64,000 nt of DNA from Escherichia coli (lineage in GTDB: Bacteria > Pseudomonadota > Gammaproteobacteria > Enterobacterales > Enterobacteriaceae): NCBI RefSeq assembly GCF_003790525.1, contig NZ_CP033635.1; one strand, 5' to 3'. The position numbers are program-made. How positions within the stretch are numbered: position 1 is the first letter of the stretch; the number at the start of each line of letters is the position of its first letter. Positions 36,001-42,000 of this stretch are shown here, piece after piece.

Positions 36001-39000
36001 ATTATAATCAAGTAGTTAACAGTAATAACAAAAAATAATTTCCTGAGAAATTAACTCTGCATTCTAAAACGGCCAGTTTTCTGAAATTACCAGAAGACCG
36101 AATACATTCATGCCTGAAGAATGGATTAGAAGAAACGAGACGGAAATAGATCTATTTATCCCTGCGGAAATAATTTCTGCTGAAATTGTTTGCGGCTATT
36201 AAAAAGGTCAAACCGTCTGAGTAAATTTTATCCAGTTACAAACAAGTATTACCTCCAGTGTATTGGTAGCTGTTAAGCCAGGGGCGGTAGCATACCTGAA
36301 GAGAATAGGGTCACATCATCAAATGGCAAGAAGTGGATTTGAAGTCCAGAAAGTCACCGTAGAGGCATTATTTCTACGAGAAATACGAACACGCTTTGGT
36401 AAGTTCCGTCTGGGATATCTGTGGGCGATTCTCGAACCCTCTGCGCATTTGCTGATACTGTTGGGCATTTTTGGTTACATTATGCACCGCACGATGCCAG
36501 ACATCTCATTCCCGGTGTTTTTACTTAATGGCCTGATTCCCTTTTTTATCTTTAGCAGTATCAGCAATCGTTCTGTAGGTGCTATTGAAGCGAATCAGGG
36601 GCTGTTTAATTATCGACCAGTAAAACCCATCGATACGATCATTGCGCGTGCATTGCTTGAGACACTGATTTACGTTGCTGTTTATATATTGCTTATGCTT
36701 ATCGTCTGGATGGCAGGCGAATATTTCGAAATAACAAACTTTTTACAACTTGTGCTTACCTGGAGTTTGTTAATCATTCTTTCATGTGGCGTTGGCTTAA
36801 TATTCATGGTCGTTGGTAAAACCTTCCCTGAAATGCAAAAGGTCCTGCCGATACTGCTTAAGCCGCTGTATTTCATCTCCTGCATCATGTTCCCTCTACA
36901 CTCGATTCCGAAGCAATACTGGTCATATCTACTCTGGAATCCATTAGTGCATGTCGTAGAGTTAAGCCGCGAGGCAGTTATGCCTGGCTATATCAGCGAA
37001 GGCGTGAGTCTGAATTACCTGGCAATGTTTACATTGATAACTCTGTTCATTGGTCTGGCGTTATACCGAACTCGTGAGGAGGCAATGCTGACATCATGAT
37101 TACTTATCACTAGTATAAAACAGGAACAACATCATAGAAACATCAAAAAAACAAAAGTATATATCTATTGTATTAAAACTTTAAAATCAGGCTGAATAAT
37201 GTTAACAGCTATAATTCCGATAGATCTGAAGCGTAGACCTAAAGATATAATTAGAAAAGCAATAAATATTGCTGAGGCAACAAAAAATAATAATATAAAA
37301 GTTATATTTGGTCATGGGAATCGTTTCACTACATATGATCGCACCTTTACAAGATTGTTAAATGGGTATGAGAATGTCCATGTAAAATCATGCGATAATT
37401 TTTCTAAGGCCATAAATGCATCTCTATTAAGAAATCAGGCGTTTAAATCAGTTGAAAGTGAATATGTTATATTACTGGATGTGGATATATACCCTGATTT
37501 TAATTTATTTGAAAAGTATAAAGAGAAAATAAAATCTGGCATAAAGCCGTTTTATATTTTGCCATGCCTATATTTAACAAAATACGGGACAAGTATATTA
37601 AATGATAGAAAGGCTTCAATTGAATCATTAAAAAAAAAGTACTTTGCGTTTTCTAGGAAAGAGTTTTTGCATTTAGCCAGCCCTTCTTCTATTACAATAT
37701 TAAAATCAGCTGATTATGAAACACTTCATGGTTTTGATGAGAGTTTTCGAGGTCATGGCTATGAAGATTTTGATTTCTTGGTGCGCTTGTATAACCATTA
37801 TTTTATACCTAAAGTAAAGGCTGATTTTTTGGCCGATAGGCCATGTCATTCTCCATTGTTTGTCACAGGGTTTAGACGATACTTAGGCGAATACTGTTTA
37901 GATATTTTATTGCATAAAGACTTTGCGTTTCATTTATACCATAATAAAAACAGGAATGAAGATTATTATATAGCTAGAACTGAAAATTATCATATATTCA
38001 AACAGAAGCACAAAAAAAATATAAGCAATGAACGATATTACGATTCAACGTTGCTTATGTTATTTATTAAACACTGCATTGATAAGGGGGAGGACATTCG
38101 AAATTATAGCATATATTTCGATAATAAACCTGGACATATAGACCGTTACGATACGTTACGACGAAGAATTAAATTTTTGCTAAATCAATAAATTTTAGTG
38201 AAGGTGTGTTGTGAAAATTAAAAAGATCAAAAAACTTTTTAAAAATCCCAAATCATTTATTGCGGACTCTCGTTATTTTAATTTTATAAATAGTAAAAAA
38301 AAAGTTGATAATAAATTAGAAATAGGATTTATTGTAATTTCTCAGAACCATGATTTATCAAGATACTCAATAGATAGTATAATACAGGCAAACAATGCAG
38401 CATCAAAATCTTTCCCTTATATCGTTATACATGACTACGATGAAAAATGTGGTACTGACACTATACATACTATAGTTAAAAAACTTGATACACCATACAT
38501 AAAAATCCTCTTTGATGGAGAAAAAATACACAGGGATTTTATTATTAAATTTTCAAATCACAATATAGATCCTAACAATAATGATATAATATTACATGCA
38601 TTTTCTACAAATTCAAATGTAAAACAGGTAGATGGTTTATTATCTAGTTCTAAAGATATATCATTCAATAATCAGTTGTGGAAAGAACATGCGGTTTTGT
38701 TATTTTCTACGCTAATAATTAAATCTGACTTAATATTAAATACTAGCAAAATACTTCATCACGGTGGAAGAATTATAGATGCGCTAAATGTGCTTCGTAT
38801 TTTTAGAGAATGTGAGGAAATGGACTATGTTTTATATTTGAATGATATGTATTCTTTCAATAGTGCCTCGCTGAAACTGGAGGAAAAGATAAAAGTATTG
38901 ATGGAGGATGAGTTATTATTAAAAATAACATTTGCAGAAATCTTTGAACATGTAAGCTTGGGGGGGAGGAATGTTTTTTATAGGAAGACGTTGTTTTATT

Positions 39001-42000
39001 TCATACACAATATAGTTTTGTTCTTGCTAAAAAACAAAAAAACAGATGAGCGCCTCCATGAGGAAACAAAAACATTAATTAAAACCCAGTTAACAGATAT
39101 AATAAGAATACTTGGAGTTGATATACTAAAGGGCTTTTCTGCAAAAAATTATAATCATGTTCACAAAATTGGATATTTAAAACTAATAGGAGTGAAAGCA
39201 GATAAAGATCTATGTTATATTGAAGATATAAATAGCGAGAATAAAATTGTAAAAGTCAAAATAGCATCACAAACAGATGCCTACCCACAGATATTACTTA
39301 ATAAAGAGTATTTAATTCCTTTTACAGCCAAGGTTAAAGACTTAACAATTTTTGACGTTAATTTCTCACACGAGATATATTCTTGGTTCTCTTATGATGC
39401 AATATCACAAGAACTTGTCATAAAAAAAGAAAATAACACTGAAATCCTCTCTGGTGGAAAACATTATAAAAAAATAAAAATAGAAAACATAATAAAAAAT
39501 TTTGAAAGAAGAGATTTAATTAACAGTTCATTACCTTTAATGTCAAAAATATTAAGATATTTACACACTGTATCATTTTTTCAGAAGAAATTTCTAAATG
39601 CATGGGTTTTTATAGATAATGAAATAAGAGCAGATGATAATGCGGAGCATTTCTATCGATATATATCCCAAAAACATCCTGATATAAATATATACTTTCT
39701 TTTGAGCAAAAAGTCTGTAGATTGGGAACGACTAAAAAAAGCTGGTTTTAAATTAGTTAAATTTGGTGGCTTTTACCATCGCTTGCTACTGCTAAACGCT
39801 CGTTATCTGCTTTCCTCCCACGCTAATCCTGCAATTGTCAACTATTTACCTAAAAAATATTATGCAGATCTTATGAAATACAAGTTTGTATTCCTTCAGC
39901 ACGGTATAACGAAGGATGACCAATCAGAATGGTTAAATAGCCGCAAAATAGATTATTTGGTGACGGCTTCAAAATTTGAACATGATGATATTTCTCGAAG
40001 AGGTAGGTATAGATATACTACAAAAGAAGTCGTACTTACTGGTTTTCCTCGGTTTGATAATTTATCAAATGTTGATACAAGAAATAAACAAATATTAATT
40101 ATGCCAACATGGAGAAAAGAACTTGCAGGAGAATTGATGAAAAAAAGCAGTAAAAGAATAAAAAATAAAGATTTTGCTAATTCATTATTCTGTAAAATGT
40201 GGGGAGGAGTTTTAAGATCTGAGTCTTTATATAATGCTTATAAAAAGAAGGGGTATACAATAATATTTTACCCTCACCCTAATCTTGCTGATTACATTAG
40301 TGACTTAAATATTCCAGATTACGTTAAAATTGGTAGTTTAGAGAATGAAAGTATCCAGAGTATTTTCAAAAAAACTAATTTGCTTATTACGGATTATTCT
40401 TCGGTGGCGTTTGATATAGCGTATATGAAAACGCCAGTTATTTATTTTCAGTTCGATAGCGACACTTTTTTTTCAAATCATTCATATTCAAAAGGATATT
40501 TTGATTATAATGATTTTGGGTTTGGGCCTGTTGTAAAAAATATAAATGACTTATCTGAACAACTAAATCTAATAGTTGATAATAACTGCAATCTTACTGA
40601 TTTTTATATGTCACGTATAAAGTCATTTTTCCCATTTTCGGATAATAATAACTCATCTAGATTATATAAAGTTTTGAGTGTTGGAGTAAATAAAAAACAT
40701 GATTTGGAAACATTGTATAATTATTTACTAATGTTCACTTCAATTATCGATATTGAAGGTATAGCGCTAATGTTAAATAACTATAAGCAACAACTACAAA
40801 AAATATTATATAAAGAGGGTTGTGATATATGTGTGGTTATAAATTGCTTATATTTGATTGCTAATGTAATTGATGAGCCTAAATTAAATTTAGCCATAAG
40901 AAATTTACTAGATGGCGTGGAATTAACTAACGGGGCACTTAAAAAAAATCATTCTTTTGGAATGAATAATGGTGTCGATAGCCATATATCATACATTGAA
41001 GACCAAATAGAAACATTGTCAACAATTATTGATACTAATAGTAAACTGTTAAGATATCTAATCGATCTTCACGCTTTTTTGACATTCTTTAAGAATGAAG
41101 AATATGTTCAAGCAGTATTTTCATTTAAACATTTGCAAAATAATCTTAAACTTAGAATAGATGTGCGTATCGTTTATATATATGTTCTCTCGTTACTGAG
41201 AGATAGGCAAATCAAGGAGGCAATGGATATAGCAAAGAAACTATCACTAAGTGATGAAAATAAAGAAGAACTATTAATTGAATTAGTAAGATTTGATAAT
41301 GTAAAGAACATAAAATCGATTGATATTGATTTTCTTTTGCCTTCAAAGAATGATGAGACGCTATTAAAATTATATTATAATGTAAAACAAAACATCCCGG
41401 AAAACATCGTAAAGAGATATTCTCATATTGATGATATGCCCTATTTTGTTTTTGAGTTTTATTTAGATGAGTTATTGTCAAAAAAAGAATTTGAAGGCTA
41501 TTACGAGTACTTAAACAATTCAAAAAACAAAGTGCAATATCTTGACAATAACATTAATAAATATAAATACATCAAGTGTATCTTTAATATACTCGGCCCT
41601 AATGCTTTTTATGAGGAATTATGTGAAGTATCTAAAGAGGATTGTCTACATAAATCATTTAATTATTTGTTTTTAAATAATATAACTTCTGATGCGGGTT
41701 TTTTTCATAAAATAATAAAGACTTTAATAACTTTTGGGTTACATAATTTTTCTTGTTTGGAAGTTTACAATTACATACTGTACTTTTATAAGCAAGAGCG
41801 GCCTGATCTGGCTAAAGATGTCATGTATATCTTTTCTATTAAACAAAATGAGCGATTTTATAATGATACCAAAAACTGGAAAAGTCATGATGACTATGAC
41901 ACATTAGTTAAAGCGGTATCTGAGCTTGAAAATTCGATGAAATAATTATTAACACTAAAGGTAAAAATATAAAACACTTTATCTCCCGCAGCCCAGCCTC

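What the first reader, a model, noticed from the sequence alone, without database searches (positions are those of the whole stretch)
38211..41945. 1244-aa three-part capsule polymerase: unknown N-domain, TagF-like phosphotransferase core, long helical C-terminal region
The central segment carries the TagF/TagB signature (LITDYSSVAFDIAYMKTPVIYFQFD), implying a polyol-phosphate or sugar-phosphate polymer (teichoic-acid-like capsule). The flanking about 450-aa N-terminal and about 400-aa C-terminal regions have no motif I can assign; the C-terminus is leucine/lysine/tyrosine-rich and repeat-like (possibly TPR-like), which could act as a chain-length ruler or membrane-association module.
Basis: partly seen in the sequence, partly recalled or inferred. 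Interest (0 to 1): 0.6.

Follow-up and report, generated by a model that had tools for sequence, protein, structure and literature searches.

The report
E. coli K52 capsule polymerase gene
This 1244-residue gene is the uncharacterised polymerase of the E. coli K52 capsule, a member of the known TagF-like capsule polymerase family that most likely strings galactose-1-phosphate units together and carries a decayed second sugar-transferase domain.

Summary
The ORF is real: 38211-41945, + strand, GTG start, 1244 aa, annotated identically in RefSeq. It lies in the low-GC serotype-specific part of an E. coli group 2 kps capsule locus. Gene content matches the K52 reference cluster, and the closest AlphaFold DB entry (99% identity) comes from strain UMN026, O17:K52:H18.

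The three-part layout is confirmed, and both "unknown" flanks can now be assigned.
- **N-terminal region.** Residues 35-257 adopt a GT-A glycosyltransferase fold whose catalytic motifs are lost. Residues 258-463 form a conserved helical plus beta-sandwich linker.
- **Core.** Residues 464-821 are a TagF-like GT-B phosphotransferase (Pfam E=7e-41). Both catalytic histidines are present, the first within a QHG motif. The literature associates QHG with hexose-phosphate transferases, not polyol-phosphate transferases.
- **C-terminal region.** Residues 822-1244 are predicted to be a TPR-like helical solenoid.

This is the GT-A/TagF-like/TPR architecture described in 2018 for Cps1B, Ccs2 and CslB. 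The most likely function is UDP-Gal-dependent polymerisation of the poly(galactose-1-phosphate) K52 backbone. A polyol-phosphate product is unlikely.

Verdict: a new, clinically relevant member of a known kind, with a vestigial GT-A domain as its one unusual feature. No biochemical characterisation was found in the library searched.

The parts
38211..41945 (+). Whole ORF, 1244 aa, GTG start. Orthologue of K52_12, the K52 capsule TagF-like polymerase.
38211..38312 (+). Residues 1-34: lysine-rich N-terminal helices carrying the motif KKIKKLFKNPKSFIADS. Relatives with intact GT2 domains share this motif.
38313..38981 (+). Residues 35-257: GT-A (GT2-like) fold domain with degenerate catalytic motifs. 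The DDGS motif and the FED motif are lost, a roughly 25-residue NGGQASARN segment is deleted, and DPDD has become F-D-G-E.
38982..39599 (+). Residues 258-463: conserved linker of helices plus a beta-sandwich (NKKxDE, YNHxHKIGY). It is shared with GT2-TagF relatives.
39600..40673 (+). Residues 464-821: TagF-like GT-B phosphotransferase domain (PF04464).
39897..39905 (+). Q563-H564-G565. This is the QHG variant of the WHG catalytic-base motif and is invariant in the homologues.
   Evidence: PMC11666461
40275..40277 (+). H689, which aligns with the catalytic H433 of TarL.
40383..40457 (+).
40674..41942 (+). Residues 822-1244: all-alpha, TPR-like solenoid of about 26 helices.
37199..38191 (+). Upstream 330-aa stand-alone GT-A glycosyltransferase (K52_13). 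It is the conserved neighbour of this polymerase in other genera.
36323..37099 (+). kpsM, the ABC transporter permease. It is separated from kpsT by the two genes above.
42117..42797 (+). kpsT, the ABC transporter ATPase.
43017..45506 (+). 829-aa hexapeptide-repeat acyltransferase (K52_10), the candidate O-acetyl/O-propionyl transferase.
45544..48216 (+). Three genes: a BcbE-like nucleotidyltransferase-fold protein (248 aa), a HAD capsule phosphatase (123 aa) and a kinase-like protein (525 aa). They are absent from the K116-like sister locus and are candidates for the fructose-branch pathway.
49790..53084 (-). kpsS and kpsC, the beta-Kdo linker glycosyltransferases that make the lipid-linked acceptor.

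Best explanation
This gene encodes the polymerase of the E. coli K52 group 2 capsule. [quoted passage not shown]

**Proposed mechanism.**
- The enzyme works at the cytoplasmic face of the inner membrane, on the phosphatidylglycerol-oligo-beta-Kdo primer made by KpsS and KpsC.
- The GT-B TagF-like domain (residues 464-821) binds a UDP-hexose, most likely UDP-Gal.
- H564 of the QHG motif deprotonates a hydroxyl of the terminal sugar. That oxygen attacks the sugar-proximal phosphate of the donor.
- H689 assists departure of UMP.
- Repeated cycles build a poly(hexose-1-phosphate) chain, which is the poly(Gal-1-P) backbone of K52.

**The other domains.**
- The N-terminal GT-A domain has lost its nucleotide-binding, DxD and catalytic-base motifs. 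It is probably catalytically dead and retained as a scaffold or an acceptor/polymer-binding module.
- The C-terminal TPR-like domain probably mediates oligomerisation and/or engagement of the primer or partner proteins, as in Cps1B and Cps3D/Cps7D.

**Downstream steps.** Neighbouring genes add the fructose branch and the O-acyl groups. KpsMT and KpsED export the polymer.

**Shown versus inferred.** Shown here: the domain folds, the motifs, the locus identity and the conservation patterns. [quoted passage not shown]
For: **Locus identity.**
- The gene order is gsp - kpsM - GT-A330 - this ORF - kpsT - acyltransferase - BcbE-like - HAD phosphatase - 525 aa - IS3 remnant - kpsS, kpsC, kpsU, kpsD, kpsE.
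- Gene lengths and domains match K52_7 to K52_13 of the K52 reference cluster.
- The top AFDB hit is B7NCU0 from strain UMN026, O17:K52:H18, at 99% identity.

**TagF-like core.**
- PF04464 matches with E=7e-41.
- H689 aligns with TarL H433, which is catalytically essential.
- QHG is invariant in nearly all homologues. The literature links it to hexose-phosphate transferases, and WHG to Gro3P polymerases.

**Donor.**
- No NDP-polyol pathway genes occur in this locus.
- None occur in the three-gene K116-like locus or the Enterobacter locus.
- The donor must therefore be a housekeeping nucleotide sugar.

**N-terminal domain.**
- The AF2 model has pLDDT 82.9.
- Foldseek matches Ccs2 of H. influenzae and A. 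pleuropneumoniae CpsB-type proteins across about 490 columns.
- Alignment with GT2-bearing relatives shows loss of the motifs and a roughly 25-residue deletion.
- This domain is the least conserved part of the protein: family mean pairwise identity is 0.32, against 0.72 for the TagF-like domain.

**Family precedent.** Cps1B is 1246 aa with a GT-A/TagF/TPR layout. Its TPR domain is dispensable for catalysis and mediates oligomerisation.
Against: - There is no biochemical evidence for this protein. None was found in the library.
- The K52 repeat unit (3-linked alpha-Gal-1-phosphate with a beta-fructofuranose branch and O-acetyl/O-propionyl groups; Hofmann, Jann and Jann 1985) is recalled from memory. 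Only the paper's title, and its listing among phosphodiester-bridged capsules, were seen here.
- H564 could not be aligned residue by residue to a solved TagF-like structure. Its assignment rests on the motif and on its spacing from H689.
- In K51-like loci a related QHG TagF-like protein coexists with a Stealth hexose-phosphate transferase. Enzymes of this type may therefore not always be the main polymerase.
- G103, E/D104 and several lysines are conserved within the degenerate GT-A domain. Some function may be retained.
Confidence: 0.7

Rival explanations
1. It is a polyol-phosphate polymerase, as the RefSeq name 'CDP-glycerol glycerophosphotransferase family protein' and the first reader's leading idea suggest. 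It would transfer glycerol- or ribitol-phosphate from a CDP-polyol to make a teichoic-acid-like capsule.
For: The PF04464 match and the RefSeq product name. The only solved relative detectable by sequence is the ribitol-phosphate polymerase TarL. A 248-aa nucleotidyltransferase-fold gene in the locus shows a weak IspD-like match.
Against: - The motif is QHG, not WHG.
- No TagD, TarI or TarJ-type genes are present.
- The sister loci carry the same polymerase without the nucleotidyltransferase-fold gene.
- K52 is described as a fructose-containing, phosphodiester-bridged polysaccharide, and from memory it contains no polyol.
Confidence: 0.07
2. It is a true bifunctional polymerase. The divergent GT-A domain is still active with non-canonical residues and adds a sugar, for example the fructofuranose branch or a second backbone residue, while the TagF-like domain makes the phosphodiester.
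For: - The characterised family members Cps1B, Ccs2 and CslB are bifunctional.
- G103 and an acidic residue at position 104 are conserved across the subfamily.
- The K116-like homologue reads D-G-D-E at this site.
- Conserved residues K98, H129, D141 and K171 suggest a maintained site.
Against: - The nucleotide-binding DDGS motif and the FED catalytic-base motif are absent, and about 25 core residues are deleted.
- This domain is the most variable part of the protein.
- A separate three-gene cassette correlates with the presence of the fructose branch.
Confidence: 0.15
3. It is not the bulk polymerase. It is a priming or transition enzyme that adds only the first hexose-phosphate unit or units onto the Kdo linker.
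For: K51-like loci pair a related TagF-like QHG protein with a Stealth polymerase. In Cps3D/Cps7D the TPR domain is required specifically to engage the linker primer.
Against: The K52, K116-like and Enterobacter loci contain no other candidate enzyme able to form phosphodiester bonds. The architecture and size match proven polymerases.
Confidence: 0.08

Closest known systems
Cps1B of Actinobacillus pleuropneumoniae serotype 1 (1246 aa), with Ccs2 (H. influenzae type c) and CslB (N. meningitidis L): GT-A/TagF-like(/TPR) capsule polymerases (Litschko et al. 2018, PMC5974469)
   Same: - Region-2 gene of an ABC-transporter capsule locus.
- Same order of domains and nearly the same length.
- TagF-like domain of the hexose-phosphate (QHG) type.
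- C-terminal helical domain of about 400 residues.
- The N-terminal GT-A plus linker superimposes on Ccs2 and on App CpsB-type models.
   Different: - Only 14-17% identity in the N-terminal half.
- The DxD motif, required in Cps1B, and the other GT2 motifs are lost here.
- The expected product is a homopolymeric hexose-phosphate backbone, not a disaccharide- or trisaccharide-phosphate.
- This protein has not been tested biochemically.
TagF (S. epidermidis) and TarL (S. aureus, PDB 8va1): wall teichoic acid polyol-phosphate polymerases
   Same: GT-B TagF-like fold family (PF04464). The second catalytic histidine and the nucleotide-binding signature align. Both are membrane-associated polymerases that form phosphodiester bonds.
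   Different: They have WHG where this protein has QHG. They use CDP-glycerol or CDP-ribitol. Their N-terminal domains are different, and they have no GT-A or TPR modules. They occur in a Gram-positive wall teichoic acid context.
Stealth hexose-1-phosphate transferases (CsaB, CsxA; K51_9)
   Same: The predicted chemistry is the same: polymerisation of a hexose-1-phosphate homopolymer from a UDP-sugar. The neighbouring 330-aa GT-A is also shared in other genera.
   Different: The fold and sequence are unrelated. No Stealth motifs are present in this protein.
Cps3D/Cps7D (TPR-TagF-like-GT-B capsule polymerases) and Bcs3 of Hib
   Same: Multi-domain TagF-like capsule polymerases with accessory, non-catalytic modules. 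TPR function has been shown for Cps3D/Cps7D.
   Different: They are polyol-phosphate transferases with active GT-B or ribofuranosyltransferase/phosphatase partner domains, arranged in a different order. No sequence match to solved Bcs3 or Cps3D chains was found.

Membership tests
TagF-like phosphotransferase superfamily (Pfam PF04464) | Significant full-length match to the Glyphos_transf profile | tested here: met
   E=7e-41, residues 464-821, model positions 16-364 of 367
TagF-like phosphotransferase superfamily (Pfam PF04464) | Two invariant catalytic histidines (TagF H444/H584; TarL H300/H433) | tested here: met
   H689 aligns with TarL H433. H564 lies in an invariant [W/Q]HG-type motif 125 residues upstream. 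H564 could not be aligned residue by residue to a solved structure.
Polyol-phosphate (Gro3P/RboP) polymerases of the TagF-like family | WHG motif around the catalytic base | tested here: not met
   The motif is QHG in the query and in nearly all homologues. The WHG versus QHG distinction comes from PMC11666461.
Polyol-phosphate (Gro3P/RboP) polymerases of the TagF-like family | A CDP-polyol supply gene in the locus | tested here: not met
   No such gene is present in this locus or in the sister loci.
TagF-like capsule polymerases, GT-A/TagF-like/TPR type (Litschko 2018) | Encoded in the serotype-specific region of an ABC-transporter (kps) capsule locus | tested here: met
   The gene lies between kpsM and kpsT, with kpsSCUDE downstream. 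Homologues occupy the same context in Enterobacter and Aeromonas.
TagF-like capsule polymerases, GT-A/TagF-like/TPR type (Litschko 2018) | N-terminal GT-A fold domain | tested here: met
TagF-like capsule polymerases, GT-A/TagF-like/TPR type (Litschko 2018) | Functional DxD motif in the GT-A domain (required in Cps1B) | tested here: not met
   DPDD of relatives aligns with F101-D102-G103-E104. The DDGS and FED motifs are also lost, and there is a roughly 25-residue deletion.
TagF-like capsule polymerases, GT-A/TagF-like/TPR type (Litschko 2018) | TPR-rich domain of about 400 residues at one terminus | tested here: met
TagF-like capsule polymerases, GT-A/TagF-like/TPR type (Litschko 2018) | Demonstrated polymerase activity producing a phosphodiester-linked capsule polymer | not testable with these tools
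   This requires enzymology. No published assay of this protein was found.
Stealth hexose-1-phosphate transferases | Stealth CR1-CR4 motifs | tested here: not met
   Pfam reports only PF04464 for residues 1-1200.

The most novel reading that the evidence does not exclude
The subfamily may represent a previously unrecognised solution for making homopolymeric hexose-1-phosphate capsules.
- A TagF-like (QHG) domain would do the job so far attributed to Stealth enzymes.
- Its fused GT-A domain would have decayed into a pseudo-enzyme, repurposed to bind the acceptor or the polymer.
- The ever-present 330-aa stand-alone GT-A neighbour also accompanies Stealth polymerases in other genera. It would be the missing 'transition transferase' that primes hexose-phosphate capsules on the Kdo linker.
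Probability: 0.3. Interest if true: 0.6.

Novelty: new member of a known kind. Interest (0 to 1): 0.4.

Why it matters
K52 is among the five commonest capsule types in European E. coli bloodstream infections. [quoted passage not shown]

Its polymerase appears never to have been characterised. UniProt lists it as 'Uncharacterized protein', and RefSeq names it, misleadingly, as a CDP-glycerol transferase.

Assigning it to the GT-A/TagF-like/TPR capsule polymerases, with a predicted UDP-hexose donor, gives a direct route to cell-free synthesis of the K52 backbone for glycoconjugate vaccines, as has been done for Hib and A. pleuropneumoniae. It also provides a natural test case for what a decayed GT-A domain and a TPR domain contribute to chain initiation and length.

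Tried and rejected
- **Sequence searches against solved structures.** The whole protein, its family profile and the N-lobe of the TagF-like domain were each searched. Only the C-lobe of TarL was found. Nothing was found for the N- or C-terminal regions or for Bcs3, Cps3D or TagF.
- **NCBIfam.** No meaningful hit.
- **Pfam.** No domain outside PF04464 in residues 1-1200.
- **Internal repeats in the C-terminal region.** None were found by profile-profile comparison of four segments. A sequence-level TPR claim was therefore dropped.
- **Link to named enzymes.** Cluster names of distant relatives were looked up to link them to Cps1B. None came from Actinobacillus. The link was made instead through Foldseek.
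- **K52 repeat-unit structure.** Searches of the paper library found only reference titles.
- **Bcs3-like multi-enzyme machine.** Considered and rejected: there is no ribofuranosyltransferase or phosphatase domain inside this protein.
- **Mis-called start or fused ORF.** Considered and rejected: the homologues' N-termini align exactly.
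Full report
**1. The observation**

The window contains an uninterrupted ORF from a GTG at 38211 to a stop at 41945 on the + strand, encoding 1244 residues. It lies in a 12-kb stretch of 28-36% G+C, flanked by DNA of about 50-58% G+C. In DNA this AT-rich a reading frame of that length cannot be chance.

RefSeq annotates exactly this CDS, at 100% identity, in three canine uropathogenic E. coli genomes. A 98.9% identical version is annotated in 36 further complete genomes, almost all from humans. The start codon is supported because the N-termini of 13 homologues from other genera align with it residue for residue.

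Pfam PF04464 (Glyphos_transf) matches residues 464-821 with E=7e-41 over nearly the whole model. The three-part layout and the coordinates are therefore confirmed.

**2. Genomic context**

The surrounding genes run in this order:
- the gsp type II secretion genes
- kpsM
- a 330-aa GT-A glycosyltransferase
- this ORF
- kpsT
- an 829-aa hexapeptide-repeat acyltransferase
- a 248-aa BcbE-like protein
- a 123-aa HAD 'capsule biosynthesis phosphatase'
- a 525-aa kinase-like protein
- an IS3 remnant
- kpsS, kpsC, kpsU, kpsD and kpsE on the opposite strand

This is an E. coli group 2 capsule locus with kpsM and kpsT split apart. The 2026 catalogue of transporter-dependent capsules notes this rearrangement for K52 among a few other types (PMC13171606).

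The lengths and InterPro domains of the serotype-specific genes match K52_7 to K52_13 of that catalogue one for one. K52_12 there is a 1248-aa TagF-like protein. Independently, the best AlphaFold DB match to my model of the N-terminal region is B7NCU0 (1248 aa, 99% identity) from strain UMN026, serotype O17:K52:H18.

The window's allele differs from the common human allele by 14 substitutions and a four-residue deletion in the C-terminal domain.

**3. The N-terminal region (residues 1-463)**

Sequence searches found nothing: NCBIfam, Pfam outside PF04464, and solved structures with either the single sequence or a family profile.

A profile of this region, searched against 1.84 billion representative proteins, found only 27 proteins at E of 0.001 or better. 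The closest are same-length orthologues. The more distant ones are 1240-1400-aa proteins carrying a canonical GT2 domain in the equivalent position. Their consensus reads VDDGSTD, NGGQASARN, FIDPDDF and FEDG.

An AlphaFold2 model of residues 1-463 is confident (mean pLDDT 82.9, pTM 0.78). It shows four parts:
- basic N-terminal helices
- an alpha/beta domain (38-217)
- a helical segment (223-325)
- a beta-sandwich (333-423)

The 'unknown N-domain' is therefore a GT-A domain followed by the family's linker. In the multiple alignment, however, the K52 subfamily shows four losses:
- The DDGS nucleotide-binding motif is gone.
- About 25 residues around NGGQASARN are deleted.
- DPDD has become F101-D102-G103-E104. 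Only G103 and an acidic residue at 104 are conserved across the subfamily.
- The FED catalytic-base motif is gone.

This domain and the C-terminal domain are the least conserved parts of the protein. Family mean pairwise identity is 0.32 for each, against 0.50 for the linker and 0.72 for the TagF-like domain. I conclude, by inference, that the GT-A domain is vestigial.

**4. The TagF-like core**

H689 aligns with TarL H433. The TarL cryo-EM study shows by mutagenesis that H433 is essential and that it contacts the donor phosphate (PMC10901376).

The catalytic base of TagF and TarL (H444 and H300) sits in a WHG motif. [quoted passage not shown] The query has Q563-H564-G565, 125 residues upstream of H689, and this QHG is invariant in essentially all homologues collected. 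I could not obtain a residue-level alignment of this N-lobe to a solved structure, so the assignment of H564 rests on motif and spacing.

**5. Which donor?**

The locus has no tagD, tarI or tarJ-type gene. Three sister loci are informative:
- **K116-like E. coli locus (strain PD23).** It carries a 47% identical, 1249-aa orthologue. Its serotype-specific region has only three genes: the GT-A partner (328 aa here), the polymerase and a 262-aa acyltransferase.
- **Enterobacter locus.** It is equally minimal.
- **Aeromonas locus.** It adds only a sugar-1-phosphate nucleotidyltransferase.

From general knowledge, E. coli makes no CDP-glycerol or CDP-ribitol as a housekeeping metabolite. The donor must therefore be a common UDP-sugar.

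K52 is cited in the literature seen here as a fructose-containing, phosphodiester-bridged capsular polysaccharide. From memory of Hofmann, Jann and Jann (1985), its backbone is 3-linked alpha-Gal-1-phosphate with a beta-fructofuranose on O2 and O-acetyl/O-propionyl groups.

This fits the gene content:
- one phosphodiester-forming enzyme (this ORF)
- an acyltransferase
- a three-gene cassette (kinase-like, HAD phosphatase, nucleotidyltransferase-fold) that is present in K52 and absent from the K116-like locus, and is therefore a plausible fructose-branch pathway

No Stealth-type enzyme is present, so this protein is the only candidate for the backbone linkage.

**6. The C-terminal region (residues 822-1244)**

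There is no TPR Pfam hit and no detectable internal sequence repeat. 'TPR-like' is thus a statement about fold only.

In characterised relatives:
- The roughly 400-residue TPR domain of Cps1B is dispensable for catalysis and mediates oligomerisation.
- The TPR domain of Cps3D/Cps7D is required to elongate the natural primer.

A chain-length ruler role is neither supported nor excluded.

**7. Comparison with what is known**

[quoted passage not shown] 2018, specifically the GT-A/TagF-like/TPR architecture typified by Cps1B (1246 aa). It fails one functional feature of that group, the DxD motif of the GT-A domain. It also fails the features of the polyol-phosphate branch: WHG and a CDP-polyol supply.

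It is not a Stealth enzyme, although it is predicted to do Stealth-like chemistry. Related K51-like loci contain both a Stealth gene and a 1173-aa QHG TagF-like gene with an equally non-canonical GT-A domain. I cannot explain this, and it tempers the assumption that every such protein is the bulk polymerase.

**8. Novelty and verdict**

The gene and its locus are catalogued (K52_12), and the enzyme family is established. This is a new member of a known kind, not a new kind of system.

What I did not find described in the papers searched:
- the assignment of the two flanking regions for this protein
- the decay of its GT-A domain
- the hexose-phosphate (not CDP-glycerol) reading of its function

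No biochemical study of this protein was found. Interest is moderate. K52 is a leading invasive capsule type, and the prediction is directly testable. The mechanism, however, follows precedent.

Noticed in passing
window 37199-38191 (+); also L002 10088-11074, L003 8967-9959, L004 8971-9963, L007 9001-10023, L008 9001-10029: The 330-aa stand-alone GT-A glycosyltransferase lies immediately upstream of the polymerase in E. coli K52, a K116-like E. coli locus, Enterobacter and Aeromonas. Its family is far larger than the polymerase's (176 clusters or more, at 45-70% identity). In Atlantibacter and Pseudomonas it sits directly upstream of a Stealth hexose-phosphate transferase instead. The catalogue paper also lists a 62% identical copy in K7. 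It is a candidate priming ('transition') transferase for sugar-phosphate capsules.
   Followed up: partly
window 45544-48216 (+): Three overlapping or abutting genes: a BcbE-like nucleotidyltransferase-fold protein (248 aa), a TIGR01689 HAD capsule phosphatase (123 aa) and a kinase-like protein (525 aa). They are present in K52 but absent from the otherwise similar K116-like locus. They may form a pathway for the fructofuranose branch, possibly through a phosphorylated intermediate that is then dephosphorylated, by analogy with ribofuranose incorporation in Hib.
   Followed up: partly
window 36323-37099 and 42117-42797 (+): kpsM and kpsT, normally adjacent and co-transcribed, are separated by the GT-A gene and the 3.7-kb polymerase gene. 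In the K116-like locus (L002) they are adjacent, with the same two genes following them.
   Followed up: partly
L006 7503-12119 (E. coli WP4-S18-ESBL-07, K51/K108-like locus): A Stealth protein (363 aa) lies directly upstream of a 1173-aa TagF-like protein that also has QHG and a non-canonical GT-A domain. Two different phosphodiester-forming enzyme types thus sit in one locus for what is reported to be a simple poly(GlcNAc-1-phosphate). The division of labour between them is unexplained.
   Followed up: partly
window 48435-49544 (-): A frameshifted IS3-family transposase remnant lies between the serotype-specific genes and kpsS. It is present at the same place in both the canine and the human K52 loci, which suggests an old insertion linked to assembly of the locus.
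   Followed up: no
window 38211-38312 (+): The lysine-rich N-terminal motif KKIKKLFKNPKSFIADS is conserved between the K52 subfamily and distant GT2-TagF relatives, and it occurs only once in the window. From memory, similar N-termini occur in other group 2 capsule polymerases such as polysialyltransferases. It may be a docking or membrane-association signal.
   Followed up: partly
window about 41838-41842 (residue 1210 of the ORF): The canine-isolate allele in the window lacks four residues (KQNV) that are present in the common human K52 allele (WP_000694256.1, 1248 aa). It also differs at 14 other positions, 7 of them in the C-terminal domain.
   Followed up: yes
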